From Bacteroidales bacterium (GTDB lineage Bacteria; Bacteroidota; Bacteroidia; Bacteroidales; UBA4181), in assembly GCA_031271175.1 (NCBI GenBank), contig JAISWE010000099.1, positions 30,639 through 94,638 on the forward strand: DNA of 64,000 nucleotides, read 5' to 3'. Positions 49,494 through 63,479 of this stretch are shown piece after piece. How positions within the stretch are numbered: the first letter of the stretch is position 1; each line of letters begins with the position of its first letter. The translations under genes were made by a program, and so were the position numbers. Below the pieces are notes generated by a model that worked only from the letters and a program-made list of their open reading frames with translations, did no database searches and was not told the origin of the DNA.

Positions 49494-49498
49494 TGGGA

Positions 49499-50884
49499 TC
49501 ATTGTATAGTTAATTTGCGAATACATTTGTTGCCGCGGTCGGCGATATAGATAGTGCCGTCACGCCTGTCTATGGCCAGCCCCCAGGGAGCGTTGAACAT
49601 GGCGTCGTCCGGATTGCCATCCCGAAGATCGGCTTTGCCGGCAATGCCTACGATGGTTGTTACTATGCCTTCGGGGGATATCTGCCGGATACAATGGTTT
49701 CCCTGTTCGGCAATGACCAGATTGCCTTCGTTATCCAACACCATTTGCCGAGGCTGCCTGAACAGCGCCTCTTCCCTGCCACCGTCCTTCCATCCCGCTT
49801 CTCCCGATTTTCCCGCATATACGCCGGTTTCGCCCGTCAGTACGTCAAAATAATGAATACAGTGCTGACTGGTGCTGGCGCAGTACATCCTGGACTTGTT
49901 CACCGGATCGAAGACAAGGTAGGTGTCGCTATTGAGCGGATTACACTGGTCTTTCAAACCGTCTCCATCCACATCCATTGATTCGCCTATGCGCGTTTTC
50001 GGATTGAACCTGATCAGGTAACCGTCGCGGTTGGAACGGAAATAAATCATGCCGTCCAAGCTGCATATCGCAAATGAGTGCTTAAACTGGTTGACGGTAA
50101 AGTCCAGCATACCAGAGGCAATATCATTTGCGGTGGGATGCAGTACTTTTCTGGTTCGCGGCGCCCACTGGAGTTCAGGGTCGAATTCGAAATACGTGTC
50201 GAGATAAGTACTGCCTCCGTCCGCCGGAACAAGAATGACTTTTCCCTCCATATCCGTGCTTGGCGCATTGGGTTTGTTGGGACATGCAAACAGCTGCGTC
50301 ACCGTGCGGTTTTGCTGGTCGATCAGCAGTACTGCGGACGTGGATTCGTGGGCAAGGAACAAATTCCCTTCGTTGTCTATCGTCAGGTAATTGGGATTGT
50401 TAAAGGTGGCTTCACCGAAAGAACCGGTTTTGAGAGCGGTTGTTCCCTTTTGCCCGACAATGGTTTCCACTAATCTGTTGGTATGGTACACATATTTTTG
50501 GCTAAAGACACTGGAGTCGTTGCCTATTACCAATGAAATCACGCAGGTGTCTCCGGGCTGTCGCGGCGTAATCGCCAGCACCCTTCCGTTACTGCATCCT
50601 ACCACAGGAGCGGCTTTGTGGTTGAAATATACTTTAACGGCTTTGGGATCGTTACCCAGGTTTTCGCCTTTCAGAATTACCTGCGTGGCCATTCCTCCTT
50701 CAACAGGCGTGAAGGACTCTCGCAGGACAGCCTGTCCCGGATCGTAGGACGGCGTATTGTCGGTTTTGGAACTTGTCGATTCTTCGCATGAAATGAGATA
50801 GAACAGACAGAAAGCACACATCAAGCGGCTTCCCTTGCTTAGTATTGCTTTTTTTACTTTTTTTTGAAATCTAATTCGGTTCAT
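49499..50884 (-). CDS. IPT/TIG domain plus NHL-repeat beta-propeller lipoprotein (first gene of this PUL)
   Basis: Lipobox FYLISCEE. FTPVEGGMATQVILKGENLGNDPKAVKVYFN (IPT/TIG). NHL-type repeats such as LVIAEQGNHCIRQISPEG and IYIADRGNKCIRKLT. Confidence 0.8.
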   Translation of the reverse strand: MNRIRFQKKVKKAILSKGSRLMCAFCLFYLISCEESTSSKTDNTPSYDPGQAVLRESFTPVEGGMATQVILKGENLGNDPKAVKVYFNHKAAPVVGCSNGRVLAITPRQPGDTCVISLVIGNDSSVFSQKYVYHTNRLVETIVGQKGTTALKTGSFGEATFNNPNYLTIDNEGNLFLAHESTSAVLLIDQQNRTVTQLFACPNKPNAPSTDMEGKVILVPADGGSTYLDTYFEFDPELQWAPRTRKVLHPTANDIASGMLDFTVNQFKHSFAICSLDGMIYFRSNRDGYLIRFNPKTRIGESMDVDGDGLKDQCNPLNSDTYLVFDPVNKSRMYCASTSQHCIHYFDVLTGETGVYAGKSGEAGWKDGGREEALFRQPRQMVLDNEGNLVIAEQGNHCIRQISPEGIVTTIVGIAGKADLRDGNPDDAMFNAPWGLAIDRRDGTIYIADRGNKCIRKLTIQ

Positions 50885-51137
50885 ATTACTTATATTTATT
50901 AGGTTACATATTTATTGATTTACTTATATTTATTGATTATAAAAATTATCACATGATTATACGATTATATCTTTTTCTCTTTTCTCTTTTTCTCGAGCGC
51001 AGTCAAATTTTTCGTCTGAAACGATATTTTTCCGCCTTTTGTCGCATTTCGTCATGAAGGTAAACATGGAATATGCGGCAGTTGAACGGAAAGGCCTCGC
51101 CGAAAGGAAACTCCCTTTTATTCTTTATTGTTTTTTC

Positions 51138-51175
51138 TCCTCCTCCCGTATCCTTACATGGATACGGGAGGAGGA
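51138..51175. other. perfect 16-bp GC-rich hairpin in the PUL leader
   Basis: tcctcctcccgtatcc-ttacat-ggatacgggaggagga. T6 lies directly 5' on the plus strand and there is no U-tract on the minus (operon) strand. The loop holds the ATG-TAA end of the R-derived mini-ORF. Confidence 0.85.
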
Positions 51176-51285
51176 AACAAGCTATACTTACCCTTTGCGG
51201 TGATTACTACCACGCGAAAAGTACCCTTTGCGGTGATGTCCGAAAGTGAGACAATCCTACTTATATTTCTTACCCTTACTTTCAT
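51154..51285 (-). other. 43-codon mini-ORF started by the R-module ATG (coding status doubtful)
   Basis: MKVRVRNISRIVSLSDITAKGTFRVVVITAKGKYSLFPPPVSM*. Its first ~21 codons are homologous to the N-terminus of the chimeric sulfatase. Confidence 0.2.
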
Positions 51286-51582
51286 AAAACTCTAATTTTC
51301 ATTAACAAAAGCACATTTACTTATTCATTGCTTGCTGCTTGCTGAAACGATTTTTCAACGACAAAGATAAATACTATTTTTTTATTTTGCAAGAAAAAAT
51401 TCATAAAAATTCTTAAATTTTGAGAGTTATTTTATAACTATTTGAAAATCAATGTATATCTTGCATAAAAATTTTTGCTTGACTGGATGAGATGCGTGAA
51501 ATCTTGCAGCTGAAAAAGACGGGGCCACAGAAAGCCACCGAGAGCGCCGATAGGTTTCATTTATTATTATGGTAATATATCA
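51198..51582 (-). repeat. repeat module R, copy 2 (upstream of the IPT/NHL-SusC PUL)
   Basis: Aligns with 40461-40852. It lies 314-698 nt upstream of the 50884 start codon. Confidence 0.85.
51362..51369 (-). promoter_or_regulatory. candidate -7 box (TAnnTTTG, minus strand) inside R copy 2
   Basis: Plus-strand caaagata is TATCTTTG on the minus strand, at the same position as the box in R copy 1. Confidence 0.35.
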
Positions 51583-51617
51583 GTAGTGTCTGCCCGAAAA
51601 CAATCACATCGTCAAGC

Positions 51618-51666
51618 AAGTCCCGCAGGGACGACACTTTATTAACCGAATGCTTTAGCTTACGGA
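51618..51666. repeat. REP-like hairpin repeat, unit 1
   Basis: aagtcccgcagggacgacactttattaaccgaatgctttagcttacgga contains the GTCCC-GCA-GGGAC hairpin. It is repeated at 51697-51745 with 3 substitutions. Confidence 0.8.
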
Positions 51667-51696
51667 CGAGCAATCACGGGCACTGTCTAACACGCT

Positions 51697-51745
51697 AAGT
51701 CCCGCAGGGACGATACTTTATTAACCGTATGCTTCAGCTTACGGA
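51697..51745. repeat. REP-like hairpin repeat, unit 2
   Basis: aagtcccgcagggacgatactttattaaccgtatgcttcagcttacgga. Confidence 0.8.
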
Positions 51746-51811
51746 TTTTAGCTTACCGTTGGTTAGTAGTCCCAGCATATTTCCGCGTATGCAGAAGAGA
51801 CGCCACCCGCC

Positions 51812-51842
51812 ACACCTTCCGTCCCGTAGGGACAGAAGGTGT
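51812..51842. repeat. related extended hairpin (GTCCC-GTA-GGGAC core)
   Basis: acaccttc-c-gtccc-gta-gggac-a-gaaggtgt gives 13 pairs with one internal mismatch. Confidence 0.7.
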
Positions 51843-51893
51843 TACAAGGGGTGACATGTCGTCATTGTGAGGTCGAAGGCATGAGCCGGCAAA

Positions 51894-51922
51894 CCCGTCA
51901 TTTTTCACATCCCACTGACGGG
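51894..51922 (-). terminator. weak hairpin 10 nt downstream of the 51932 gene stop
   Basis: cccgtca / tgacggg form a 7-bp stem with a 15-nt loop. On the minus strand only TTTG follows. Confidence 0.25.
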
Positions 51923-51931
51923 CTTATCGCC

Positions 51932-52267
51932 TCACTGTACAATGGCCTTAGCTACATACTGCTTTTTGGTGCCGTCTTCCGCAGTCACCGTATAGGTGAC
52001 GCCGCCGGAAAAGAAGTCCTGAGCCACGCCCGATCCAGGACTGATGGTAGCTTTGTCCGAAACCGTAATAGTGGGCGTCAGGGGCGTCTGCGCGTCGGTT
52101 TTTCCAAAGTAGCAGATAATATTCCCCTCGGTTATCTGCCACGAGGTGTCGTCCACCTTGAACGAAAGAATATCACACGCGGAACTCTTGTCCGAACCCT
52201 TATCGCAGGAAACAATCCCTATCGTAACCACCAACAATACAACATTCACTAATCTTAAAATCTTCAT
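51932..52267 (-). CDS. small lipoprotein consisting of one DUF5018-like beta-sandwich domain
   Basis: MKILRLVNVVLLVVTIGIVSCDK lipobox. ILSFKVDD..W.I...I...TPTITVSDKATISPGSGVAQDFFSGGVTYTVTAEDGTKKQYVAKAIV has the same pattern as three internal domains of the upstream giant protein. Confidence 0.7.
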   Translation of the reverse strand: MKILRLVNVVLLVVTIGIVSCDKGSDKSSACDILSFKVDDTSWQITEGNIICYFGKTDAQTPLTPTITVSDKATISPGSGVAQDFFSGGVTYTVTAEDGTKKQYVAKAIVQ

Positions 52268-52285
52268 CGTACTATTTTTTATCAA

Positions 52286-55200
52286 TTATTTTACTGAAAG
52301 TTTAACCACTTTTTCAACGCCGTTTTTCGCTATCTTCACAAGGTATGTACCTTTGGGCAAATGGCTTACGGAAATATCCTCCTTCGGGTTGGATGCTTTG
52401 CTTTGCAGCCAGCGGCGACCGTTGATGTCAAAGAAAGTGATCACTTCTCCCCCTTCAAGTCCGCTAACGGACACCACGTCCGTAACCGGATTGGGATATA
52501 CCTTCAAATCCGCCCATTCGGTATCGCCTATCCCCGAAATCGGATTCCAGATAGCGTACAGCGTCAGGTCTCCGTCCGTATGATACGGCGTAGTAGCGGC
52601 ATATTGCTCACCGCCGTCGTTGAAAGAGTCTGACCATCCGCCGAACTCCCAGTAACCCTCTCGGCTCAATACAGGCAGTTCGCCCACCGCATCGCCATAG
52701 ACCACTTGCCGGCTTTCGGGATGCGCAACGCCCTGTGCATGAGAATTGAAACTCAATGTGTAGGTGTTGATCGACCACTGGGCATACAGGGTAGTGTCGC
52801 TGTAAAATTGATACACCGTGGTCTCATCGAAGAAGTCGCCTGTACCGTCCAGCTCGAGGTTCCATCCTGTAAAGGTATAACCGGATTTTACGGGGGTAGG
52901 CAACGGCCCTATCGGCTCGCGCTGAGTAACGGCTATGACGGCGCTGGCGTCTTCGGGCAATGTCCCGCTGTTGGGATCAAGATCCACCTCAAAGTTGAAA
53001 GCTTCGATCTCCGCCGATACGGTATATACCTTTGTGCTTCCGTTTCCTGCCGTTACCGTGATGGTCAGCGGGCCAGATGCAAAGTCATGCGTAGCGCCGC
53101 TTGCAAAATCTGCCGTAGCGTTGATGTCGTTCAGTGCATATACTACGGCAAATTCACCCAGATCGCCCACTTCCCTGGGCAACGTAACCGACACCTCGTT
53201 CCCGTTGATCTCGGTAACATAACCGGCGACGGTCAAGGTATAGAGATTGTTGTCCGCACTGAGGGACTGTTGCGGCGCACCGAGGCCATAATCATAGTAT
53301 GCGCTTGCATCGGTCAGGTATTGGGCGATATTTTTCAGCAGTTTCACCGTGTTGGTGTTGAACTTCGCATACGAGTTGCCTTCAAGGCTCAATCCCAGCA
53401 TCAGGTACTTGGCTGCATTGTTCAAATTGACTTCATGCAACTGAATACCTGTCGTATTATAGGTGGCAATCACGTGATTGGCTGCCTGCAATGTCGCGTC
53501 GAAATTGGTGCCCGTCAAGTCGGCAGCATACTGGATGCCGTTGTCAGCCGTAGTAGGTTCACCGTAATAAGTAAGGTCATCGCCCGTAAAGCTTACGCCT
53601 TCAAAAATATTATGGTTCTGCAACGCTGCCGGAACCTGGGCTGTTATCGCACCAGTCCCTGCATTGCCGGGATTGGTAGTTGACCAGCTCCACCTTCCGT
53701 TATTGTAGAAAAATGCTTTCAGGTTCAATATCGGTTTCACGCCCACCAAATTCCGCAACGCCCAAGCCGTAGCATTGCTGCCGCCCACGCTGGGATGTGC
53801 CACAATCAGGTCATAGGGCGCGAAAAATGCCGCTATGTCGTCAGGCGCGGTGGCGGGCGCCTCAACATAGGTCACGTCGTAATCCACGAACGCCGACAGC
53901 AGTTTGTCGTCATTCGGAGAGCCGGCGCCGGTGGTGGCTGCAGTATTCAGAATGGCAATTTTTTTCTTGGGTGCGCCGTCGCCTACTTTCACAAAAATGG
54001 TGTAGGTTTTCACGTCGCCGTTTCCTGCCGTTACGTTGATGAGCAACGGGCCGTCCGCAAAGTCGTACTGAGTACCGCTCACAAAGTCTGCCGTTGCTTT
54101 AGCGGGGTCTCCCAGCGCAAAGGTCACGGCATATTCGTCAACGGCGTCCAAAGTAACCGCCGCCATGCCCGACGTATGGCTGATGTCTGCCAGGATGCCG
54201 TTAATACTCAGTGACTGGATGGTGTTGTCCGTCGGTATGCCCACAGGGGTGTTGGTAGTGTAATCATAGTATCCGTCGGGGTTGAGCAGGTACATCACCG
54301 CGTTTTGCAACAACCTCACCGTATTGTCGGATAAAAGGGCAAAAGCCTTGAGTTCCTGACTGACGCCCAACAACAAGTATTTGGCGGCATTGTTGCCCAG
54401 ATTGATTTCATGCGTCTGCACCAAGCTGTTGTACGTAGCCAGCGCATTATTGGAGGCGTTCCATGAGGCATCCCAACGCGTACCGGCGAAAGGCAACACA
54501 TTGACTGTTTGGATATTGTTTACCGCAGGGGTCGGAGCAGCATATAAGGCCAACGACTCGCCCGAAAATTCCAACTTGTTGAAAATCGGATGATTTTGCA
54601 GGGCTGTCGCCACATTTACATCCGTTATGCCCGCTACCGTATTGGCAGGCGCAGTCCATCCCCACCGGTCGCTAGTACCGCTACCGCTCGTATAAACAAA
54701 CGGTTTCAGATTCAGTATGGCCTTTTTCCCTATCAGTCCGGCCAAAGCATAGAGATTGCTGTTTTGTCCGTTTACGGTAGGGTGCACCACAATCAAGTCA
54801 TAAGGCGCATAGAGCGCGGCGGTCTCATCCGCCGTCGGCTCATTCGCATGGCCCGTTGCTGTTCCGGCAGGCACAACAGTTACGTCGTAACCGTCAAGAA
54901 ACTGCATGAACCGTTGGTGGCTCGCCTCGTCATAATTAGCGTCGGTAGTCATGTCGGCGGGTAAAGCGGCAAGCATGGCGATTTTAAATTCGTCGGCAAC
55001 CGTCGCCGTTACCGTATAGATTTTTTCTTCGCCGTTCTCCGCCGTTACCGTAAGGGTAAGCGGTACGTCTGTGGAAAAATCATACGTCGCGCCGCTGGAG
55101 AAATTTGCGGTAGCAAGAGCGTCAGTCAGGGTAAAATCTACTTTCCATGTACCCAGCGGCCCCTGTATCTTGGTGAAAGCAACGGTAATGTCGCCCGTCA

Positions 55201-57928
55201 GATCGTTGATCTGCGCCTTTACGTCATTGATCTTCAACTCGCTGATGGTGTTCACCGCAGAAGCATTCGGATCGTCGTTATTCACAAGTTCCAAATTGGC
55301 AGCAAAATAAGCAAGACGATTTTGTTGTGTATTTCCAAATGTTTGAGGGTCTAAACCTGTATCCCCCAATTGATAAAGATCTTCTCCTGCCGTTGAAATA
55401 GTTACCCGTCTATACACGCGGAACGATTTGCTGCCTACAGGTGCAGGTACGTTGACAGCAGGCGCTCCGTTACGCACCGGCGGCAAACTAACCACTTCAT
55501 ATCCAACGATAGAATTTTCATCGAACGGTATTTTATCCGAAAACAATATCACCGGAGTAGGTATAGCAGTAGCACTTAATGAACTTCCGGTTCCGTTAAT
55601 AGTCACAGAGGCAATATTTTTCTTGACACTTTTCGCTGTGAGATTCGCTTCCAGATAATGGGCATCACCAGTAAAACGAACGTCGGGAACAACCGCTCCG
55701 GAACCATAATGCATATAAACGTTATTAGCGCCACTATTTACCGTAGCGCCGCCTTGCGCCGCAAATGTCATTTCATTGTCCGAATCCGGAAATACCGTAT
55801 AACTGGTTGTCGCGGCTACAAATGTTACGCCCGATACTGCTGGAGTGAGCTGTGAAACAGATGTAATAGTCCCTGTCGCATTTATGGGTACGATAAGGTT
55901 GCTACCCGACGCCAACGCATAACCGTCGCAATTCAAGCCTATATCTGCTACGCTTGCCGTAAACGAATAGGTGCCTGCCACGAAACTCCATTCCGTACCG
56001 GTGGTGGTTCCATGCGCGTTAATGGCATCCACCCGCCAGTAGTAGGTGGCGCCCATTGTGAAGGGCGTTGAGGGGGTATAGGTGAAAGAGGTAGCCGTGA
56101 TGGGAGCGTCTCCGCTCACTTTGCTTAGCGCGCCGCTGGTTTCACCCGCATACACCTCGTATGTAACCGGTTGGCTCCATGTTCCCGTTTCGTTTGTCCA
56201 CGAAAAATCCACTGAGGTGTAGAAACGCGTAGTAGCGCCGTTCTCCGGCGCCGGTTCGGTACATGCCAGCGGCACGCCGGCAGTACCTTCGGTGCTCACT
56301 TTCAGCGCTTCGGACAGCGCGGATGTTATGCCGCTTTTGCGGGTCTCTAAACGAAACCAGTAGAATGTTTCCTGATTCAATCCAGTTACCTGAAATGAGG
56401 TAGCGCTAGCGCTCAACGTCTGGTGACCGGTAAAGATCACGCCGTCTGTTGAGATCTGCAACACGATATCGTCTGCGTCCGGCTGGTTGTTTTTCCACGT
56501 CAAATCAATCGACGTTGTGGTGCGGGCAGTCCATTTCAAATCGTATGCGCTACGCACGTACGGTGCTCCCGCGGGTGCGTTGATGCTGTTGAGGTAGTTT
56601 TCGATGTTCAGGTATCCGCCTGTCCCGGCCTGCAACGCATCGCTCGCATCACTCGGGTTCAAACCGTTGGCGCTTTCCCATGCGTCCGGTATTCCGTCGT
56701 TGTCGGTATCTGGCGCTTTCTCTCCTTCGCTTACTACGCCCACATTATTGTAAATGCCGTTTTGGCTTTCGCCGCTGATGAAAGCGCCACCCGTACCGTA
56801 GGTTTGCAGTTGGTCAATCATATAGGCGTCCACTATGGAGCGTGCAGGCAAAGACGCGCCTGCGGAAGCGATCACGCTGGTAAGCGCGTCCTGCGGCGTA
56901 AGAATCGCGGCGTTCGGCGCGAGAAACGGTTTGGGGATGTCTCCGCAGGTTGCGCAGTTAGCGGCAGCAAATCCCGTTACGGAAGTCACCAATGTGGGAG
57001 CACTTCCGGCATGGGTGTTGGCATAATCTGCATCCACAGTGGCCACGCCGTCCAACGTGCCGTTTTTATCTCCATCCACGAAGTTGTTATTGCTGTTGGT
57101 GAACAGTTGGAAATTTTCTCTGGCGCGGGTAAAAGGCAAAGCGCCGCTGCCGGGTCCGGAAATAAAATAGTTCCCTTCCATCCATGCCCACGAGGGGCCG
57201 TCGGAATCGGCAAGTATATATCCGTTGCTGCCTTCCCAGTTGTACACCACATTGTTGATGAACTGGTTCAGTCCCTTGACTTTCGGGTTGCGCGTGGTAT
57301 TGTCTATGTACAGGCAACCGATGATGGAAACGCCGCCCGAGGTCTGTATCAGTCCGCCTGCAGAGTGCGACACCAGCCCCTGCCCGATGATGGAATGTTG
57401 CAGGGTGATATCGGTAGGTTCGGTACCTTTGTTGTCCCAACTGATCGAAAAAGTTTCATCTCTTCCCCATGCAAACGAGCAATGGTCGAATATCATGTTC
57501 TTGCCGTTGGCTACGCCTCCGGCGTCTTTGCCGGATTCGCCTTTTGTGCCCATATAAATGCGCAAATAGCGGACAATCAGGTTGTTCGCTCCGGAGAACG
57601 ACACGCCGTTTCCATAAATGATAACGCCGTCGCCCGGTGCGGTGTGTCCGGCAATATATGAATTGCCCGAGAACACAACGCGTGATTTAAGGTTGATGAC
57701 ACCGCTCACGTCAAAAACGACAATGCGTCCGGGCTGGCTCACAGCGTCGCGAAAAGAGCCTGCGCCCGCATCATCCAGATTGGTCACGTGATACACGCTG
57801 GGGGTCGTAACGCCGCGCGCACCCAATGTGTACCGCCCGAAACCTTCAGCTCCGGGAAACGCTAACTGCTGTGCCGAAATCCATGCACATGTGCAGACAA
57901 ACAATAACGTAAATAATAATTTTTTCAT
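52286..57928 (-). CDS. 1880-aa T9SS-secreted multidomain pectate lyase (PL1-like) with FN3 domains, duplicated unknown modules, Listeria-Bacteroides repeats and a type A CTD
   Basis: Signal MKKLLFTLLFVCTCAWISAQ. AFPGAEGFGRYTLGARG...NLIVRYLRI...IDNTTRNPKVKG (pectate-lyase beta-helix, R-x-P). DTDNDGIPDAWE. FN3-like regions aa ~460-650. Two homologous ~320-aa modules (aa 893-1223 and 1235-1547). GYTFTGWN...LYAQW and WEFGGWSD...LYAIW (Listeria-Bacteroides repeat). VYPNPVTDVVSVSGL...GTYLVKIAKNGVEKVVKLSVK (T9SS CTD). Confidence 0.88.
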   Translation of the reverse strand: MKKLLFTLLFVCTCAWISAQQLAFPGAEGFGRYTLGARGVTTPSVYHVTNLDDAGAGSFRDAVSQPGRIVVFDVSGVINLKSRVVFSGNSYIAGHTAPGDGVIIYGNGVSFSGANNLIVRYLRIYMGTKGESGKDAGGVANGKNMIFDHCSFAWGRDETFSISWDNKGTEPTDITLQHSIIGQGLVSHSAGGLIQTSGGVSIIGCLYIDNTTRNPKVKGLNQFINNVVYNWEGSNGYILADSDGPSWAWMEGNYFISGPGSGALPFTRARENFQLFTNSNNNFVDGDKNGTLDGVATVDADYANTHAGSAPTLVTSVTGFAAANCATCGDIPKPFLAPNAAILTPQDALTSVIASAGASLPARSIVDAYMIDQLQTYGTGGAFISGESQNGIYNNVGVVSEGEKAPDTDNDGIPDAWESANGLNPSDASDALQAGTGGYLNIENYLNSINAPAGAPYVRSAYDLKWTARTTTSIDLTWKNNQPDADDIVLQISTDGVIFTGHQTLSASATSFQVTGLNQETFYWFRLETRKSGITSALSEALKVSTEGTAGVPLACTEPAPENGATTRFYTSVDFSWTNETGTWSQPVTYEVYAGETSGALSKVSGDAPITATSFTYTPSTPFTMGATYYWRVDAINAHGTTTGTEWSFVAGTYSFTASVADIGLNCDGYALASGSNLIVPINATGTITSVSQLTPAVSGVTFVAATTSYTVFPDSDNEMTFAAQGGATVNSGANNVYMHYGSGAVVPDVRFTGDAHYLEANLTAKSVKKNIASVTINGTGSSLSATAIPTPVILFSDKIPFDENSIVGYEVVSLPPVRNGAPAVNVPAPVGSKSFRVYRRVTISTAGEDLYQLGDTGLDPQTFGNTQQNRLAYFAANLELVNNDDPNASAVNTISELKINDVKAQINDLTGDITVAFTKIQGPLGTWKVDFTLTDALATANFSSGATYDFSTDVPLTLTVTAENGEEKIYTVTATVADEFKIAMLAALPADMTTDANYDEASHQRFMQFLDGYDVTVVPAGTATGHANEPTADETAALYAPYDLIVVHPTVNGQNSNLYALAGLIGKKAILNLKPFVYTSGSGTSDRWGWTAPANTVAGITDVNVATALQNHPIFNKLEFSGESLALYAAPTPAVNNIQTVNVLPFAGTRWDASWNASNNALATYNSLVQTHEINLGNNAAKYLLLGVSQELKAFALLSDNTVRLLQNAVMYLLNPDGYYDYTTNTPVGIPTDNTIQSLSINGILADISHTSGMAAVTLDAVDEYAVTFALGDPAKATADFVSGTQYDFADGPLLINVTAGNGDVKTYTIFVKVGDGAPKKKIAILNTAATTGAGSPNDDKLLSAFVDYDVTYVEAPATAPDDIAAFFAPYDLIVAHPSVGGSNATAWALRNLVGVKPILNLKAFFYNNGRWSWSTTNPGNAGTGAITAQVPAALQNHNIFEGVSFTGDDLTYYGEPTTADNGIQYAADLTGTNFDATLQAANHVIATYNTTGIQLHEVNLNNAAKYLMLGLSLEGNSYAKFNTNTVKLLKNIAQYLTDASAYYDYGLGAPQQSLSADNNLYTLTVAGYVTEINGNEVSVTLPREVGDLGEFAVVYALNDINATADFASGATHDFASGPLTITVTAGNGSTKVYTVSAEIEAFNFEVDLDPNSGTLPEDASAVIAVTQREPIGPLPTPVKSGYTFTGWNLELDGTGDFFDETTVYQFYSDTTLYAQWSINTYTLSFNSHAQGVAHPESRQVVYGDAVGELPVLSREGYWEFGGWSDSFNDGGEQYAATTPYHTDGDLTLYAIWNPISGIGDTEWADLKVYPNPVTDVVSVSGLEGGEVITFFDINGRRWLQSKASNPKEDISVSHLPKGTYLVKIAKNGVEKVVKLSVK

Positions 57929-58271: not shown

Positions 58272-60206
58272 TCAATTTTTCCGAGGCAGGAACCAGTTAT
58301 TGGGCGTAATGCTGGGCGCCGCCTTACCTGCTTTCTCAAACTTTTTGCGCAGCATCTCGTTCAGATAAATCGTTCCCGTGCCGTCATCTTTATTTTTGCG
58401 GAGGGCAATGCGCAGCATGTCTCCCCACCGGTGCCCTTCAAAGCCGCACTCCAAAGCGGCTTCCGTCAGCAACGCTTCTTCTACCCACTGGATGGAATCG
58501 GCTTTGTTGAGCACCCAATCAGGCTTGGCAACGTTTTGCAGATATACCCGATAACGCAAACCGTTAGATCTGTACCAGGGGGACGTAAAACGCGTATATT
58601 GGTGAAAAGAATTTATGTCACTATTGAAGCGGGCGTCCAGATAGAAAGGATACGGATACGGGACGGAGGGCGTAAGGGCGTCCACCGGACGATAACCGCT
58701 GTACTGTATTCCTTCCACATTACTGCCGCTGCCTCCCCATGGCAAGCCCTCGAAGTTAGACCAGTTGTAGGCGGAACGAACGCCGCCGCTGTTCAGCAAG
58801 GCCAGCGCCAAATCGGGATAGCCGGAACGGTTGGCCGCTTCGGCATAGCGCAGGTGCAACAATCCGGCGCGATAAATAAACCATTTGCCCGCCAGCAGAT
58901 TTTCCTGTTTATTGGACGCATAGTCCAGACGTATCATCCTTCCGTCCGACAAACGCGGATAGTAATCATACAGATATTTAATGACCACCGGGTCTCCGTT
59001 CACATGGTCAAACGACGATTCACGCCCGCGCCCGTCATACTGTACGTTGTTGCCGCGCTGTATTTGCGCTTCCCACAAATCATCTATCGCATGTTGGGAG
59101 GGTTTCAGCCGGTATTTGCCTTTGCCCGTATTGGCAAACAATTCTATCAACGGATACTGAATGGCAAAATTCGACTTGTATTCAAACATGTTGATCATTT
59201 CCGCCCCCAATTGGGAGTCGGTAGAGGCGCGAGAAAAGATCTCTTTCCATTTGTTGCCGAAACTCACTATATCTTGCGCCTTGTAGCGGTCATAACTGAT
59301 ATAAAAGAACGGTTGGCTGGACAGGTAAAAGTCGTAATCGCACGCCGCCTTATAAATCAATGTAGCGCCGTTGTTCAACCATGCCTTTTTTTCCGCTTCG
59401 TTGATCACCTCGTAGTATTGTGCGGCAGCTTCTTCATAGCGGTTGCTGTACAGGAGGATATCCCCAAAGACCATGTGTTTGTTCAGCAGCATCATCTTCA
59501 GGTTGACGTTCTGCGTTTGGGCGCTTGTTGCGGCAAAAATCGGCGAACTCACCACCACTTCCAAGGTGGGCAAAGCCTGCATGGCTTCCCGCAATTTCTC
59601 CAAAACCTGTTCATAGCTCAGGATAGGGAAACGTGAAGCGTCTTTCAAATCTTCTACGGTCACAAACGGTTCGGTGATGTAGGGGATGTTCCCGAAATGA
59701 ATAGCCAGTTGCAGATACACCCAGCTGCGTACGGTCATCACATCCGCATAACGAAAGTCGTAATTGTCCTTGCTCAGTTTGTTTTCACTTTTCATGTAGT
59801 CAAAATTCGCCAATGCATCGTTGCAATTGAGAATCACTTCATAAAAAGGCGACAAGTCGCAGTAGGCATTATCCGGCGTGGCGTTGTGGTCGTTGATTGC
59901 CGTCTGGTCTGAGGTGGCATTCACGGTAACGTCCATCAAATCGCCCCGCAGTTCGTTCAGTACGACGACTTCGTCCACCAGTTCCATCAATTTGCCGTAA
60001 ATGCCCAGGATAAGATTGTCGGCGTCGTTGAAGGTGTTATAATTGTCGCTCGCTTCCACGGCATTTTTATCCGGCGCGTCGAGCATTTTATCGCAAGAGG
60101 CAAAAACAAGCAGTAACCCCACTCCTATCCCGCTCCATAATGCGGAAGAAAACAGCCTGCAGGCTTTATTTTTTTTGAAAAACATCTTTTCCATTTTTAT
60201 TCTCAT
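58272..60206 (-). CDS. SusD/RagB family lipoprotein (pair 5)
   Basis: Lipobox LLVFASCDKMLDAPD. SusD-like TPR body. C-terminal region HRWGDMLRIALR. The start may be at 60194 or 60185 instead. Confidence 0.85.
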   Translation of the reverse strand: MRIKMEKMFFKKNKACRLFSSALWSGIGVGLLLVFASCDKMLDAPDKNAVEASDNYNTFNDADNLILGIYGKLMELVDEVVVLNELRGDLMDVTVNATSDQTAINDHNATPDNAYCDLSPFYEVILNCNDALANFDYMKSENKLSKDNYDFRYADVMTVRSWVYLQLAIHFGNIPYITEPFVTVEDLKDASRFPILSYEQVLEKLREAMQALPTLEVVVSSPIFAATSAQTQNVNLKMMLLNKHMVFGDILLYSNRYEEAAAQYYEVINEAEKKAWLNNGATLIYKAACDYDFYLSSQPFFYISYDRYKAQDIVSFGNKWKEIFSRASTDSQLGAEMINMFEYKSNFAIQYPLIELFANTGKGKYRLKPSQHAIDDLWEAQIQRGNNVQYDGRGRESSFDHVNGDPVVIKYLYDYYPRLSDGRMIRLDYASNKQENLLAGKWFIYRAGLLHLRYAEAANRSGYPDLALALLNSGGVRSAYNWSNFEGLPWGGSGSNVEGIQYSGYRPVDALTPSVPYPYPFYLDARFNSDINSFHQYTRFTSPWYRSNGLRYRVYLQNVAKPDWVLNKADSIQWVEEALLTEAALECGFEGHRWGDMLRIALRKNKDDGTGTIYLNEMLRKKFEKAGKAAPSITPNNWFLPRKN

Positions 60207-60218
60207 TATAATTATTTT

Positions 60219-63200
60219 TTACAATCCAAGTTTAATTCCAAACATGAAAGAACGCGGTTGCGGCGTCATCCCCACATCTACGCCGTAATACAGCGGGCTT
60301 TGCATGGCGCTGAATTCGGGATCATATCCCAAATATTTGGTCAGCGTGAAGAGGTTCAATCCGGTGGCATACACTTGTATTCCGCGGAAAAAACGAATTT
60401 TCAAAGGAATATCATAAGATATGGACAAGCTTTTCAGTCTCAGGTACGACCCGTCTTCTATCCAGCGGTCGGAAAAACGGGAATTACCTGCCGGGTCGCC
60501 CCACACCGCTTTCGGCGCTGTGGTGACATGTCCTTCCTTGCTCCACCGGTTGGCGATATTTGCCGTTTGGTTGTCGAACCCGATCATGGATTCGGCGTCT
60601 GCCCGAATGGAGTTATAGATGTCATTCCCAATGGAATAGGTGAACACCGCATTCAATGTCAGCCGTTTCCACTGCATCCGATTGACAATAGAGCCGTACC
60701 AATCGGGGTTGGGGTCGCCAATTATGGTCATATCCGCTTCGTCAATGATCTTGTCGGTGTTTTGATTCACGAAACGGACGTCGCCTGCCGTAAACGGGAT
60801 CAACACGCTTCCGTCGCCTCTGGCACTTAAGCCTGCCGCGTCCGCTTCCACCGTAGTGGCATATACGCCATTGGTTTGGTATCCGTAAAACAGCCCGATC
60901 GGTTGTCCCACTTTCGTAAGAATATTGGCGCCGGCTATGTTGGTGATGCTTTCTTCGGATAGTTCGGTCACCTCGTTTTTATATTTCGCTATGTTCACGC
61001 CCAAATCCCACTTGAACGCACGGTCGATAATACGTCCCTGTATCCCTACTTCAAAGCCCGTATTTTTCATAGCGCCGTCATTCGCCGCATAAGTGGTGAT
61101 CCCCGCATAATCCTTATTCTGTTTCCAGTTCAGCATGTCGTTGGTTTTATTGTAGAACACATCCAACGTCACTGCCAGTCTTTCATTGAACAATGCCGCA
61201 TCCACACCCGCGTTAAATTTGTTCACCGTTTCCCATTTCAGGGCGGGATTGGCGATGTTGCCACGCACCAACCCTTGACTGCCGATAATGGACTGCGGCA
61301 CATACAGCGATCGCACGCTGTAATTGCCGATGCCGTCGTTGCCTGTAACGGAATATCCCACACGCAGTTTCAGCAACTCTATGATATTCGTTCCGAACAT
61401 AAAATTTTCGGACGAAATCAGCCATGCTCCGGTAATGGAGGGGAATAGTCCGAACACGTTGTCGCCCATCTTGATGCCGTCCGCTTCTTTGCCGAAACGG
61501 GAAGAGCCGTCCAAAGCCATGTTGTAGGACAGGAAATAGCGGTTGAGGTAGCTGTATTCTCCGTTCAAATAGAACGACAGCCATTTCCAGTCGCCCAGGA
61601 TACCCGATGTGGAAGCCAGTTCCAGCTTGCCGTTGCCTACGGTGTGCATATCGTCGCTGGACGAGTTAAAGGCGTTCAGTGCGTCGCTTTCCAGACTGTT
61701 GGTCTGGAAACGTCCTCCCAGATAAGCCCTCACGCTATGTTTGCGGTCAAAATCGCGGTGATAGCCTACGTGTGCATCCAGATAATATTGCAGGTAGCGC
61801 GACACGTTGGCTATCATTTCGTTGGTCACTACGGCGGAAGGCAGCAAATCATGCGCCAAGCCTCCTTCGGGCAGGAAAATATTTTCGCGCGCCTTATCAA
61901 AGGTAACGCCGAAGGTGATGTCCAAATCCAAATAATCGTTCAACGCTGCATTAGCGCCTATGTTTCCGAAGAAACGGTATGCTTTGTTTTCCAGCGTGGT
62001 ACCTTCGCCCGTCAAGGCTGTCGGGTTGCTCACCCCGAATATGTCGGCGTTCTCCAAATTAGGCGTAAGGATGCCCGTTTCGTTATAGACGTAGGAGGTG
62101 GTGATGGGTGATTTTCTCAAACCTATCGTTATCGGGTTGAATGGCGACAAGCCTTCGTTCGCCAGCGAGCGGTTGCTGTAGGCGAAGTTCATGTTGCTGC
62201 GCATTTTCAACCATTTCACCACATAAAGTTCGGAATTGAACTGTGTGTTGTAGCGGGAAAAGCCCGTATTTTCAACAATCCCGTCATGATTCAGGAACCC
62301 CACGGACAAAGCGTACAGGGCAATGTCGTCTCCTCCTTTGATACTCAGGGAATAATTCTGGCTCACGCTGTTGCGGAATACTTCTTTTTGCCAGTCGGTA
62401 TCATGGTTGTAGCGGTAGTAATCGTAATTGCCTTCTACGCCCCATTTTTCCCGTACCGGTATTTCCTGACTCATGTAAGGCAATGCCTGTATCTCCCGGG
62501 ATGTATATCTCCCGCTTGTGGTCAGCATCTCGCTCAGATAGGAACGGTATTGAAAGGCGTTCATCATCCGGTATGGGTTGGACAATCCTTGGTTCAATCC
62601 CCCGTAAGCATGTACGTCGATAATGGTTGCCTGCTCCGTCGCTTTGGCGGTTTTTATCAGCAGCGCGCCGTTTGCCGCCTTGCTCCCGTAAATGGACGCC
62701 GCATCTTTCAGCACCGTAATGCTTTCGATGTCTTTCACGTCAATCCCCGTAAGCGGCGTAATATAGTTCCCGTCGATGCTCGAAGGCGAGGTCAGCGAGT
62801 TCTCGAAAGGCACCCCGTCAATGACGATCAGCGGCTGGGTGGAGGCATAAATAGAATTGAAGCCCCTCACGTACATGTTCCCGCCCGCTCCGAACATGCC
62901 CGAACGCAAAACAGTATTGACGCCCAATCCTTCGTCCTGTAACAAATTTTCGGGAGACACAACGGTCTTCTTATAATTATCATTATTAGAGAGAACAGAA
63001 AGAGCGGCTGTGCTTTTTATCCAGTCTTTTTCTCCAAACGGGTCGTCAGCTTTCTTGTACACGGTCTTGAACGACTCGTCGTGTAAGCTGATCACCAATT
63101 CCTGTTTCTTTTCCACCTCGTCGAGGGGAATGGCGGTATACATGCCCTCCACATTTTTCCAGTAAAGAATAACATACTCTTTGCGCAACAGCACTTCCTT

Positions 63201-63479
63201 ATAGGCATAGCCCGGTACGCTTAACTGCAAAACATCGCCTACTTCGCCCTGACTCAGCACAAAACGTCCTTCATCGTCCGTAATGGCAGAAGCAATACCC
63301 GGAATACTCAGCGCCACGCCGGGTATCGGCAGGCCCGTTTCCGAAGAAAGCACTATGCCGTTCACCACAGGACCGCTCGCCACAGGGTCGCTCGGTTGCT
63401 GTTCTTCCTGTGCCCAAATCCCCCATGAGAAAACGGCGAAGCACACACACCATACACACTTTTTCATTGTTGCTGTCAT
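60219..63479 (-). CDS. SusC/RagA family TonB-linked outer-membrane transporter (pair 5)
   Basis: Signal CFAVFSWGIWAQ. Carboxypeptidase-like domain (VNGIVLSSETGLPIPGVALSIPG...DDEGRFVL), plug (VRGFNSIYASTQPLIVIDGVPFE) and a large barrel. Confidence 0.9.
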   Translation of the reverse strand: MTATMKKCVWCVCFAVFSWGIWAQEEQQPSDPVASGPVVNGIVLSSETGLPIPGVALSIPGIASAITDDEGRFVLSQGEVGDVLQLSVPGYAYKEVLLRKEYVILYWKNVEGMYTAIPLDEVEKKQELVISLHDESFKTVYKKADDPFGEKDWIKSTAALSVLSNNDNYKKTVVSPENLLQDEGLGVNTVLRSGMFGAGGNMYVRGFNSIYASTQPLIVIDGVPFENSLTSPSSIDGNYITPLTGIDVKDIESITVLKDAASIYGSKAANGALLIKTAKATEQATIIDVHAYGGLNQGLSNPYRMMNAFQYRSYLSEMLTTSGRYTSREIQALPYMSQEIPVREKWGVEGNYDYYRYNHDTDWQKEVFRNSVSQNYSLSIKGGDDIALYALSVGFLNHDGIVENTGFSRYNTQFNSELYVVKWLKMRSNMNFAYSNRSLANEGLSPFNPITIGLRKSPITTSYVYNETGILTPNLENADIFGVSNPTALTGEGTTLENKAYRFFGNIGANAALNDYLDLDITFGVTFDKARENIFLPEGGLAHDLLPSAVVTNEMIANVSRYLQYYLDAHVGYHRDFDRKHSVRAYLGGRFQTNSLESDALNAFNSSSDDMHTVGNGKLELASTSGILGDWKWLSFYLNGEYSYLNRYFLSYNMALDGSSRFGKEADGIKMGDNVFGLFPSITGAWLISSENFMFGTNIIELLKLRVGYSVTGNDGIGNYSVRSLYVPQSIIGSQGLVRGNIANPALKWETVNKFNAGVDAALFNERLAVTLDVFYNKTNDMLNWKQNKDYAGITTYAANDGAMKNTGFEVGIQGRIIDRAFKWDLGVNIAKYKNEVTELSEESITNIAGANILTKVGQPIGLFYGYQTNGVYATTVEADAAGLSARGDGSVLIPFTAGDVRFVNQNTDKIIDEADMTIIGDPNPDWYGSIVNRMQWKRLTLNAVFTYSIGNDIYNSIRADAESMIGFDNQTANIANRWSKEGHVTTAPKAVWGDPAGNSRFSDRWIEDGSYLRLKSLSISYDIPLKIRFFRGIQVYATGLNLFTLTKYLGYDPEFSAMQSPLYYGVDVGMTPQPRSFMFGIKLGL

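What the first reader, a model, noticed from the sequence alone, without database searches (positions are those of the whole stretch)
52286..57928. Giant T9SS pectate lyase with a twice-duplicated composite module of unknown function
Domain order of the 1880-aa protein:
1. PL1-like pectate lyase beta-helix.
2. A Ca-binding-like DTDNDGIPD motif.
3. Two FN3-like domains.
4. An unassigned beta-rich region (aa ~650-890).
5. Two homologous composite modules, aa 893-1223 (nt 54260-55252) and aa 1235-1547 (nt 53288-54226).
6. A third beta-sandwich alone (aa ~1559-1642).
7. Two Listeria-Bacteroides repeats.
8. A type A CTD.

Each composite module is a DUF5018-like beta-sandwich (I..L.IN.......A.F.SG..YDF....L...VTA.NG..K.YT) followed by a ~230-aa alpha/beta domain. 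That domain is marked by KIA[MI]L, APYDLIV.HP, ILNLK.F.Y, RW.W, LQNH.IF, HE[IV]NL.N.AKYL.LG and V.LL.N...YL......YYDY. The strand/helix alternation suggests a flavodoxin-like or class I glutamine-amidotransferase-like fold, but I cannot assign a family. This is a plausible new carbohydrate-active or binding module attached to a lyase.
Basis: partly seen in the sequence, partly recalled or inferred. Interest (0 to 1): 0.6.

Follow-up and report, generated by a model that had tools for sequence, protein, structure and literature searches.

The report
Secreted pectate lyase with binding modules
A 1880-residue secreted pectin-cutting enzyme carries two copies of an unnamed two-part module, which is probably a distant relative of a known sugar-chain-binding protein of gut bacteria and most likely holds the enzyme on pectin.

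Summary
ORF 52286-57928 (-) encodes 1880 aa in the stated domain order. The N-terminus is a PL1 subfamily 2 pectate lyase (PDB 9BUJ, E 3.5e-27) with the catalytic Arg conserved. Modules A and B are 43% identical (E 3e-70), and the beta-sandwich occurs three times.

The ~230-aa alpha/beta domain matches nothing in Pfam, NCBIfam or PDB sequences.

Profile-profile comparison links each composite module to the Bacteroides thetaiotaomicron levan surface glycan-binding protein BT1761 (DUF5018 + DUF4960):
- beta-sandwich against its Ig domain: probability 98%, E 4.5e-14;
- alpha/beta domain against its levan-binding head: probability 86%, E 5e-6, with shuffled controls at E >= 0.24.

The family has 333 cluster representatives. 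In every informative locus examined it is fused to, or lies beside, pectin enzymes (PL1, PL11, PL9, GH28, CE8, GH105-type).

Best explanation (0.6): a type IX secreted lyase with two pectin-binding modules, encoded next to SusC/SusD. A catalytic role for the domain is not excluded. I rate this a new variant of a known kind, of moderate interest.

The parts
52286..57928 (-). Whole gene: 1880-aa secreted multidomain pectate lyase
   Evidence: ORF list and translation
57869..57928 (-). N-terminal Sec signal peptide (aa 1-20, MKKLLFTLLFVCTCAWISAQ)
   Evidence: Read from the sequence. Inference: no signal-peptide predictor was run.
56582..57868 (-). PL1 subfamily 2 pectate lyase domain (aa 21-449), including its C-terminal helical region
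   Evidence: 9buj_A E 3.5e-27 over aa 21-267. R213 aligns with the catalytic Arg220 of PfPL1. PelZ NCBIfam E 1.5e-28. 49% identity over aa 1-449 to the L012 homologue.
56645..56710 (-). DTDNDGIPDAW Ca-binding-like motif (aa 407-428), probably the pseudo-EF-hand at the end of the PL1_2 domain
   Evidence: TSP3_bac E 0.0018. Same position as DKNKDGINDRW of 9BUJ. Ca site described in PMC11229556.
56264..56551 (-). FN3 domain 1 (aa 460-555)
   Evidence: Pfam fn3, best stretch aa 463-543
55982..56263 (-). FN3/Ig-like domain 2 (aa 556-649)
   Evidence: Second fn3 stretch and weak Ig_Rha78A_N at aa 572-648. Recurs paired with the next domain in homologues.
55253..55981 (-). Conserved beta-rich domain of unknown fold (aa 650-892)
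   Evidence: No Pfam or PDB hit. 15-sequence alignment A4 with invariant N-G-T, F..F and S.R positions. Recurs in the cassette FN3-X-sandwich-alpha/beta.
54989..55252 (-). Beta-sandwich 1 (aa 893-980), DUF5018-like Ig domain of module A
   Evidence: 41-45% identity among the three copies. hhalign probability 98.2%, E 4.5e-14 to the Ig domain preceding DUF4960 in levan-SGBP homologues.
54260..54988 (-). Alpha/beta domain 1 (aa 981-1223), ThuA/GATase1-like fold, DUF4960-related, subtype 1
   Evidence: All family-conserved residues are present.
53969..54226 (-). Beta-sandwich 2 (aa 1235-1320) of module B
53288..53968 (-). Alpha/beta domain 2 (aa 1321-1547), the copy that was modelled, subtype 2 (the one present in orthologues)
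   Evidence: AF2 pLDDT 96.3, pTM 0.93. Foldseek best hits are GATase1 and ThuA-like at TM 0.5-0.6. hhalign to DUF4960: probability 86%, E 5e-6.
52994..53287 (-). Beta-sandwich 3 alone (aa 1548-1645)
   Evidence: Faint DUF5018-rel hit at aa 1610-1637.
52529..52993 (-). Two Listeria-Bacteroides repeats (aa 1646-1800)
   Evidence: Flg_new E 2.3e-21, two stretches
52289..52516 (-). T9SS type A C-terminal sorting domain (aa 1805-1880)
   Evidence: PF18962 at 45.2 bits (cut-off 27). TIGR04183 at 42.2 bits (cut-off 23).
58272..60206 (-). SusD-family gene directly upstream
   Evidence: SusD_RagB and SusD-like_3
60219..63479 (-). SusC-type TonB-dependent transporter gene upstream of SusD
   Evidence: Plug domain and CarboxypepD_reg-like domain
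51932..52285 (-). Small ORF abutting the stop codon: signal peptide with Cys, then one beta-sandwich of the same kind
   Evidence: E 6e-7 to beta-sandwich 3

Best explanation
The gene encodes a type IX secreted endo-acting pectate lyase that carries its own substrate-capture apparatus.

**Shown by similarity**
- The protein has an N-terminal Sec signal and a type A CTD.
- It has a PL1 subfamily 2 beta-helix with the catalytic Arg (R213) in place.
- It has two modules, each an Ig-like DUF5018-type sandwich followed by an alpha/beta head with a ThuA/class I amidotransferase-like fold.
- The two parts of the module, in that order, are distant homologues of the central Ig domain and the C-terminal levan-binding head of the Bacteroides thetaiotaomicron surface glycan-binding protein BT1761 (DUF5018 + DUF4960).

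**Inferred mechanism**
1. The protein crosses the inner membrane by the Sec pathway and the outer membrane by the T9SS. It is then released or tethered at the cell surface.
2. The two alpha/beta heads bind pectin chains. They would use the conserved aromatic and basic cluster (W93, W95, Y88, K84, R92, H119, Q146, K187; numbering of copy B), which lies on the same sequence segments that carry the amidotransferase active-site residues.
3. Two heads of different subtype on Ig-like stalks would give avidity, and possibly dual specificity (homogalacturonan and rhamnogalacturonan I).
4. This holds the lyase on its substrate so that it cleaves galacturonan by beta-elimination.
5. The unsaturated oligogalacturonides are taken up by the SusC/SusD pair encoded immediately upstream.
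For: - **Lyase:**
- **Secretion signals:**
- **Fold:** AF2 pLDDT 96.3. Foldseek best matches are GATase1 domains and ThuA-like proteins 4e5v/1t0b at TM 0.5-0.6, and also OST48 and the IFT52 N-terminal domain.
- **No catalytic Cys:** neither copy contains any Cys. No conserved Cys appears among 151 domains.
- **Homology of the alpha/beta head to the BT1761 type:** hhalign of the 151-sequence family against a 46-sequence DUF4960 alignment gives probability 86%, E 5.1e-6, score 44.6 over 103 columns. One reversed and 20 column-shuffled controls score <= 14.9. Two of 51 members give weak Pfam DUF4960 hits.
- **Homology of the sandwich:** probability 98.2%, E 4.5e-14 against the Ig domain immediately before DUF4960. 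Those proteins carry PF16410 + PF16324.
- **Binding residues:** levan-binding Q352 aligns with Q146, conserved in 128/151. W359 aligns with W/F156 in the window's subfamily.
- **Function of DUF4960:** levan binding was shown by cryo-EM with ITC (PMC7618045) and independently by phage display (PMC10076258).
- **Fold precedent as a CBM:** CBM87 of Agd3 has the same fold class, no triad and conserved aromatics (PMC7229062).
- **Pectin association of the family (333 representatives):**
  - fused to PL1_2 in the window and in orthologues;
  - fused to PL11 in P0017;
  - inside an RG-I PUL in Paludibacter, L003;
  - next to PL11 in B. salyersiae;
  - next to DUF4450, SASA and GH88-type genes;
  - in a locus with GH28, CE8, PL9 and GH88-type genes;
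  - next to GH28;
  - next to a PL1_2 gene;
  - next to CE8 with SusC/D.
- **Copy number:** tandem copies (two or three per protein; P0002 has three copies plus nine Flg_new repeats and no catalytic domain) are typical of binding modules.
- **Both copies intact:** both window copies keep every family-conserved residue.
Against: - No binding experiment exists for any member of this family. Pectin as the ligand rests only on gene fusion and neighbourhood.
- The link to DUF4960 is remote. It is confidently aligned only over the C-terminal half. HMMER scores are 10-14 bits. Pfam DUF4960 does not hit the window copies.
- BT1761 chains (8aa2/8a9y) are not among the 50 best Foldseek matches.
- The stacking Trp W297 and W311 of BT1761 have no securely aligned partners.
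- The conserved constellation K84-H178-E179 falls, by motif alignment, on the positions of the Cys, His and Glu of amidotransferases. It is more polar and more strictly conserved (K84 in 144/151) than most CBM sites, which leaves room for catalysis.
- The protein uses a T9SS CTD, not the lipid anchor of classical SGBPs.
- No other pectin enzyme lies in the visible part of this PUL. The window ends 521 bases beyond SusC.
Confidence: 0.6

Rival explanations
1. The alpha/beta domain is an enzyme: a new pectin-modifying catalytic domain (for example an acetyl or methyl esterase, or a second lyase). It would be built on the amidotransferase scaffold, with Lys84/His178/Glu179 in place of Cys/His/Glu.
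For: - K84 is conserved in 144/151 domains, H178 in 112 and E179 in 118.
- By motif alignment PILNLK matches PILGVC of PabA (PabA sequence recalled from memory). This places the Lys at the nucleophile elbow.
- Stand-alone secreted forms exist: signal peptide + domain + CTD (P0001). P0007 (344 aa) is a similar but N-terminally truncated record with no CTD detected.
- Some loci with the domain show no acetylesterase in the visible region.
- Lys and His act as base and acid in several polysaccharide lyase families (own knowledge).
Against: - There is no Ser or Cys nucleophile.
- Tandem repetition, and fusion to already complete lyases, resembles CBMs.
- The nearest characterised relative (DUF4960) and the fold-mate CBM87 are non-catalytic binders.
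- H178 and E179 are less conserved than expected for a catalytic dyad.
- E179 is also conserved in the non-catalytic DUF4960 family.
Confidence: 0.2
2. The domain is a structural element, not a ligand-binding one. It would serve for oligomerisation (like the GH42 trimerisation domain), as a spacer, or as an attachment point for the cell surface or the SusCD complex.
For: - The same fold superfamily includes the GH42 trimerisation domain (own knowledge; it was not among the matches listed).
- The Foldseek matches include the accessory domain of Op5Man5 (7bob) and the non-enzymatic scaffold domains of OST48 and IFT52.
- The domain occurs in long adhesin-like T9SS proteins rich in Listeria-Bacteroides repeats.
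Against: - A purely structural role does not explain the consistent association with pectin enzymes across distant members.
- It also does not explain the strict conservation of surface-type residues (Trp, Lys, Arg, His, Gln) at 25-30% overall identity.
Confidence: 0.1
3. The modules bind a glycan other than pectin backbone, for example arabinan or galactan side chains, another wall polymer found together with pectin, or a bacterial surface polysaccharide.
For: - One member lies next to GH43, and one next to a GH63-like gene.
- The two subtypes in the window differ at 54% of positions.
- The related DUF4960 binds a quite different polymer, levan.
Against: The fusions are to backbone-cleaving lyases (PL1_2, PL11). 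The neighbours are mostly backbone enzymes: GH28, PL9, CE8 and GH88-type (Glyco_hydro_88) unsaturated uronyl hydrolases.
Confidence: 0.1

Closest known systems
BT1761 (SGBP-lev), the levan surface glycan-binding protein of Bacteroides thetaiotaomicron; Pfam DUF5018 (PF16410) + DUF4960 (PF16324); PDB 8A9Y/8AA2 chain T
   Same: - Same order: an Ig-like sandwich followed by an alpha/beta head with ThuA-like fold.
- Probable distant homology of both parts (hhalign 98% and 86%).
- Encoded in a PUL next to SusC/SusD.
- Q352 and W359 of the levan site align with conserved positions here.
   Different: - No Pfam DUF4960 hit for the window copies; about 15-17% identity.
- Associated with pectin enzymes instead of GH32.
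- Present in two copies inside an enzyme, not as a free lipoprotein.
- Surface delivery by T9SS CTD instead of a lipid anchor.
- Conserved basic residues (K84, R92, K187) that the levan binders lack or do not conserve.
- W297 and W311 are not matched.
CBM87, the N-terminal domain of Aspergillus fumigatus Agd3 (CE18)
   Same: - A GATase1/ThuA-like alpha/beta/alpha fold used as a carbohydrate-binding module.
- It is attached to a polysaccharide-active enzyme.
- It lacks the Cys-His-Glu triad and has conserved aromatics at the C-terminal edge of the sheet (PMC7229062).
   Different: - No sequence relation was detected.
- Fungal or exopolysaccharide context, with galactosaminogalactan as ligand.
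Class I glutamine amidotransferase domains (PabA, GMP synthetase GATase, CTP synthase) and ThuA-like proteins (1T0B, 4E5V)
   Same: - Best structural matches (Foldseek E 2e-7 to 1e-5, TM 0.5-0.6).
- Same strand order.
- The conserved Lys and the His-Glu pair fall on the segments that carry Cys, His and Glu in the amidotransferases.
   Different: - 8-15% identity.
- No Cys at all in either copy.
- No Pfam GATase or ThuA hit.
- Extracellular protein.
PfPL1 (PDB 9BUJ) and the Bacteroides thetaiotaomicron homogalacturonan-PUL lyases, PL1 subfamily 2
   Same: - The N-terminal 450 aa match: a beta-helix lyase with the catalytic Arg.
- The C-terminal helical region ends in a Ca-binding motif.
   Different: The characterised enzymes are about 450 aa and single-domain. 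Here about 1430 further residues of accessory domains follow.
CBM77 (pectin-binding module of Ruminococcus flavefaciens; own knowledge)
   Same: A non-catalytic module appended to pectin lyases. It is thought to recognise de-esterified homogalacturonan through basic residues.
   Different: CBM77 is a small beta-sandwich (about 110 aa) with no fold or sequence relation to this domain.

Membership tests
PL1 (subfamily 2) pectate lyase | Significant sequence similarity to characterised PL1_2 members | tested here: met
   9buj_A (PfPL1) E 3.5e-27 over aa 21-267. PelZ model E 1.5e-28.
PL1 (subfamily 2) pectate lyase | Catalytic Arg in the R-x-P motif | tested here: met
   R213 (TTRNPK) aligns with Arg220 (NSRTPR) of PfPL1. 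The second Arg named in the paper (Arg235) could not be placed.
PL1 (subfamily 2) pectate lyase | Match to the curated models (Pfam Pec_lyase_C; NCBIfam PelZ equivalog cut-off) | tested here: not met
   No Pec_lyase_C hit at E <= 1. PelZ gives 99.8 bits against a cut-off of 840, so the protein is not a PelZ equivalog. dbCAN was not available.
PL1 (subfamily 2) pectate lyase | Beta-elimination activity on galacturonan | not testable with these tools
   Needs an enzyme assay (A235 on polygalacturonate or pectin).
T9SS type A cargo | C-terminal type A sorting domain above curated cut-offs, plus an N-terminal signal peptide | tested here: met
   PF18962 at 45.2 bits (cut-off 27). TIGR04183 at 42.2 bits (cut-off 23). 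The hydrophobic N-terminus was read from the sequence.
T9SS type A cargo | T9SS machinery in the same genome | not tested
   The rest of the genome is not available. Two further CTD proteins lie in the window.
Class I glutamine amidotransferase (catalytic) | Three-layer alpha/beta/alpha fold | tested here: met
   Foldseek top hits are PabA, GMPS GATase and CTP synthase, E 2e-7 to 1e-5.
Class I glutamine amidotransferase (catalytic) | Cys-His-Glu triad with Cys at the nucleophile elbow | tested here: not met
   Neither copy contains a Cys. No conserved Cys in the family. Lys is found at the elbow motif in 144/151 domains.
ThuA (PF06283) / GH42 trimerisation domain (PF08532) | Match to the family profile | tested here: not met
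   No Pfam hit at E <= 10 for the window copies. No hit among 51 family members at E <= 1. ThuA-like structures are fold neighbours only, at about 10-12% identity.
DUF4960 / BT1761-type SGBP | Match to Pfam PF16324 | tested here: not met
   No hit for the window copies. Only 2 of 51 family members give weak hits, best E 0.0016.
DUF4960 / BT1761-type SGBP | Homology of the alpha/beta head detectable by profile-profile comparison | tested here: met
   hhalign probability 86%, E 5.1e-6, 103 columns. Controls give E >= 0.24. Only the C-terminal half is confidently aligned.
DUF4960 / BT1761-type SGBP | DUF5018-type Ig domain immediately N-terminal to the head | tested here: met
   hhalign probability 98.2%, E 4.5e-14, mapping to the Ig domain that precedes DUF4960. 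Architecture PF16410 + PF16324.
DUF4960 / BT1761-type SGBP | Conservation of the glycan-contacting residues (N295, W297, W311, T350, Q352, W359) | tested here: inconclusive
   Q352 aligns with Q146 (128/151). W359 aligns with W/F156, but only in the subfamily that has this loop. T350 aligns with G144. W297, W311 and N295 lie in the poorly aligned half.
DUF4960 / BT1761-type SGBP | Free outer-membrane lipoprotein of a fructan PUL (GH32 neighbour) | tested here: not met
   Here the unit is internal to a T9SS enzyme. The family's neighbours are pectin enzymes, and no GH32 was seen.
DUF4960 / BT1761-type SGBP | Glycan binding by the head domain | not testable with these tools
   Needs ITC, affinity gels or glycan arrays.
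CBM87 | Sequence relation to the Agd3 N-terminal domain | tested here: not met
   A profile of the family finds no PDB chain at E <= 10 other than one spurious 20-residue match. Only the fold class is shared.

The most novel reading that the evidence does not exclude
The alpha/beta domain is not a binder but the founding member of a new family of pectin-modifying enzymes. It would have repurposed the amidotransferase scaffold with a Lys (K84) at the nucleophile elbow and a His-Glu pair, for example as a de-esterase or a second lyase activity. That would explain why it also occurs alone as a secreted protein.

A milder version is likelier (about 0.5). In it, the domain founds a new pectin-specific CBM family with this fold, and the two subtypes in the window read different pectin domains.
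Probability: 0.15. Interest if true: 0.8.

Novelty: new variant of a known kind. Interest (0 to 1): 0.5.

Why it matters
- **Open question in pectin capture.** Pectin PULs of Bacteroidota are well studied, but how T9SS-bearing species capture pectin at the surface is not.
- **A widespread unnamed family.** The domain family has 333 cluster representatives at 50% identity and no Pfam or NCBIfam model. It travels with PL1, PL11, PL9, GH28 and CE8 genes.
- **A generalised binding head.** The evidence connects this family to the levan SGBP head (DUF4960). If it binds pectin, the ThuA/GATase1-like SGBP head is a general, re-targetable glycan-binding scaffold and not a levan curiosity. It would then define a new CBM family.
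- **Practical uses.** It would improve PUL substrate prediction. It would also offer a pectin-targeting module for enzyme engineering.
- **A second unknown domain.** The recurring cassette FN3-X-sandwich-head contains a further conserved domain (aa 650-892) with no known relative.

Tried and rejected
1. **GH42 idea.** Many distant hits are 600-800 aa with the domain at about residue 400-600, which resembles GH42. A Pfam scan of ten such proteins found no GH42 or any catalytic domain, so the idea was rejected.
2. **Direct family assignment.** Pfam gave nothing at E <= 10 and NCBIfam gave nothing in this region. PDB sequences gave nothing by phmmer or by profile.
3. **First AF2 run.** A three-sequence alignment gave pLDDT 57 and was not used. 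A 51-sequence alignment was needed.
5. **Word-index protein search.** It found only 1-6 relatives. The exhaustive HMMER search was needed to see the family.
6. **Genome scan.** With the narrow alignment it returned three loci. The window's own genome was not found.
7. **Domain aa 650-892.** A PDB profile search, Pfam on 15 members, and hhalign against the sandwich, the SGBP N-terminus and DUF4960 gave nothing convincing.
8. **Recent tandem duplication.** This was rejected. DNA similarity is residual, and each copy is closer to domains in other proteins than to its sister.
9. **Literature searches.** Searches combining amidotransferase-like fold, PUL and pectin found nothing relevant. The useful lead came from a search on 'ThuA-like' plus 'polysaccharide'.


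Full report
**1. What is there**

The minus-strand ORF 52286-57928 starts with ATG and encodes 1880 aa. The curated libraries confirm the ends of the protein:
- two Listeria-Bacteroides repeats (Flg_new, E 2.3e-21);
- a type A T9SS sorting domain (PF18962 at 45 bits and TIGR04183 at 42 bits, both above cut-off);
- two FN3 stretches;
- a weak TSP3-type Ca motif at aa 407-428.

The N-terminal 450 aa are a PL1 lyase.
- They match NCBIfam PelZ (E 1.5e-28, far below the equivalog cut-off) and PDB 9BUJ (E 3.5e-27).
- 9BUJ is PfPL1, the first structure of PL1 subfamily 2. Its catalytic base Arg220 (PMC11229556) aligns with R213 here.
- That paper describes a Ca-binding pseudo-EF-hand at the C-terminal end of PfPL1.
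- Pfam Pec_lyase_C does not hit.

**2. The repeat**

- Modules aa 893-1223 and 1235-1547 align over their whole length at 43% identity, E 3e-70.
- The roughly 88-aa beta-sandwich occurs three times at 41-45% identity.
- At DNA level only 60-83 nt stretches of 65-76% identity survive, spaced 978 and 1014 nt apart.
- Copy B of the alpha/beta domain is 50-59% identical to twelve domains from other proteins, including the single module of the orthologues, but only 46% to copy A. Copy A is closest to P0003 (52%) and to the domain fused to a PL11 lyase in P0017 (48%).
- The two modules are therefore old paralogous subtypes, not a recent in-gene duplication.
- Orthologues have one module: P0008, P0009, P0011, P0012, and a 1234-aa protein in L005 that is 48% identical over aa 1-1229.

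**3. The alpha/beta domain has no named family but a clear fold**

- Pfam gives nothing at E <= 10 for either copy. It gives nothing meaningful for 51 family members scanned one by one, apart from two weak DUF4960 hits.
- NCBIfam and PDB sequence searches, single-sequence and profile, give nothing.
- An exhaustive HMMER search of 1.84 billion cluster representatives found 333 proteins at E <= 1e-3 and 155 at E <= 1e-10.
- With a 51-sequence alignment, AlphaFold2 gave pLDDT 96.3 and pTM 0.93.
- Foldseek against the PDB ranks class I glutamine amidotransferase domains first (PabA, GMP synthetase, CTP synthase). ThuA-like proteins (4E5V, 1T0B) follow, then OST48/Wbp1, the IFT52 N-terminal domain and the accessory domain of a GH5 mannosidase. 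All are at TM 0.5-0.6 and 8-15% identity.
However, neither copy contains a cysteine, so the domain is not an amidotransferase.
- The family-conserved positions (copy B numbering) are D53, P79, N82, K84 (144/151), Y88, R92, W93 (147/151), W95, N102, H119, F122, Q146, H178, E179, K187, Y188, N213 and Y217.
- By motif, P-I-L-N-L-K lines up with P-I-L-G-V-C of PabA. I recalled the PabA sequence from memory, and no structural superposition was possible. This puts the Lys at the nucleophile elbow.

**4. Where the family lives**

Scanning the 150 best representatives with the window's own segments shows a recurrent cassette: FN3 - unknown domain (aa 650-892 type) - sandwich - alpha/beta head. It occurs in several settings:
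- alone behind a signal peptide (P0005, P0016, P0019, P0026);
- duplicated (P0020-P0023);
- behind a PL1_2 domain (the orthologues).

The head also occurs in other forms:
- bare, between a signal peptide and a CTD (P0001);
- in two or three tandem copies (P0002, P0003, P0025, P0029);
- in front of a PL11 rhamnogalacturonan lyase (P0017).

Genomic neighbourhoods of members chosen across the E-value range:

| Locus | Member | Neighbours |
|---|---|---|
| L003 (Paludibacter) | 626-aa protein with the head | SusC, SusD, DUF4450+GH88, PL11-CTD, GH106, GH88 |
| L004 (B. salyersiae) | P0153 | PL11 fragments directly downstream |
| L005 | P0005 | the PL1_2 orthologue, DUF4450, SASA, GH88 |
| L008 | P0038 | GH28, CE8, PL9-CTD, GH88, then uronate catabolism genes |
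| L010 | P0025 | hybrid two-component regulator, GH28 |
| L012 | P0029 | a PL1_2 gene (49% identity, E 1e-129), SusC/D |
| L015 | P0118 | SusC, SusD, CE8 |

L001, L011, L013 and L014 were short or uninformative (GH63-like or GH43 neighbours). Every informative case is a pectin locus. In the window itself the gene follows SusC (60219-63479) and SusD (58272-60206) directly.

**5. The link to a characterised protein**

- A literature search on 'ThuA-like' plus 'polysaccharide' led to the B. thetaiotaomicron levan utilisome paper (PMC7618045).
[quoted passage not shown] W297 and W359 are needed for binding by ITC.
- I recovered the exact C-terminal domain sequence from PDB 8AA2 chain T, which is named 'DUF4960 domain-containing protein'. 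I then collected its homologues. Many of these carry Pfam DUF5018 + DUF4960.
- Profile-profile comparison of the 151-sequence family with a 46-sequence DUF4960 alignment gives probability 86%, E 5.1e-6 and score 44.6 over 103 columns. The reversed and 20 column-shuffled controls score at most 14.9, with E >= 0.24.
- Shared motifs are HPIF/HPLF, Q146/Q352, the GTxW loop (W359), the E of IHE/IAE, and NAxxYL.
- The N-terminal half aligns only weakly. W297 and W311 have no secure partner.
- The beta-sandwich family matches the Ig domain immediately preceding DUF4960 at probability 98.2%, E 4.5e-14.
- Both halves of the composite module, in the same order, thus correspond to the stalk and head of a known SGBP type.
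- DUF4960 was independently identified as a levan-binding domain by phage display and proposed as a new CBM family (PMC10076258).
- The same fold class serves as CBM87 in Agd3, without the triad and with conserved aromatics (PMC7229062).

**6. Interpretation**

The best-supported reading is a T9SS-delivered PL1_2 lyase. It would be kept on pectin by two SGBP-type binding units of different subtype, and would feed the adjacent SusC/SusD.
- Shown: domain identities, fold, absence of the Cys, remote homology to the SGBP unit, and the pectin association of the family.
- Inferred: that the heads bind pectin, that the Trp/Lys/Arg/His/Gln cluster is the site, that two subtypes mean two specificities, and that products enter through the neighbouring SusC/D.
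- The main rival is catalysis by the head (Lys/His/Glu on the amidotransferase active-site segments; stand-alone secreted forms). I give it about 0.2.
- A purely structural role, or a non-pectin ligand, gets about 0.1 each.

**7. Novelty**

The lyase, the CTD, the FN3 domains and the repeats are ordinary. Two things are new:
- a large, unnamed, pectin-locus-associated sister family of DUF4960;
- its incorporation, twice and as two subtypes, into a secreted lyase.

This is a new variant of a known kind. It is worth a binding assay but is not categorically new. The domain at aa 650-892, which travels with the module, remains without any known relative.

Noticed in passing
window 51932-52285 (-): A 117-aa ORF begins directly after the stop codon of the giant gene. 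It has a signal peptide ending in Cys (lipoprotein-like), followed by a single beta-sandwich of the same kind as in the modules (E 6e-7 to sandwich 3). It may be a free stalk-only relative or a remnant.
   Followed up: partly
window 55253-55981 (-), aa 650-892: The 'unassigned' region is a conserved domain. It recurs with FN3 and the sandwich-head unit as a cassette in at least 14 other copies, and has invariant N-G-T, F..F and S.R positions. No Pfam, PDB-sequence or profile-profile relative was found, and the fold was not predicted.
   Followed up: partly
window 21259-63479 (-): The window holds a run of PULs on one strand. Verified SusC genes lie at 60219-63479, 46374-49526 and 35850-39071. 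Verified SusD genes lie at 58272-60206, 44333-46348 and 21259-23166. Further ORFs of SusC/SusD size at 23172-26267, 30738-33812, 28845-30713 and 33843-35828 were not scanned. The run also carries GH43 (41779-43287), a sulfatase (39068-40558) and BT_3987-like proteins.
   Followed up: partly
window 49499-50884 (-): A TIG/NHL-repeat protein gene overlaps the start of the next SusC gene by 28 bases. This is an unusual first gene for a PUL.
   Followed up: no
window 14686-17127 (-) and 1912-4608 (+): Two more T9SS cargo proteins are present: one with Big_2 and a type A CTD, the other with a CHU_C type B CTD. The organism therefore uses both CTD classes.
   Followed up: no
window 50885-51931: About 1 kb of low-GC sequence (0.44 against about 0.50) lies between the small ORF and the next operon, with no convincing ORF. 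It was not examined for RNA genes or regulators.
   Followed up: no
alpha/beta domain position 59 (copy B numbering; aa 1379): This position is Glu in 106 of 151 family members, but Pro, Ala or Ser in the subfamily that includes both window copies. It is a clean subfamily marker of unknown meaning.
   Followed up: no
L004 10001-12622 (Bacteroides salyersiae): The head-containing gene P0153 and the following PL11 pieces (406 aa and 60 aa) look like one larger fusion gene broken by frameshifts.
   Followed up: no
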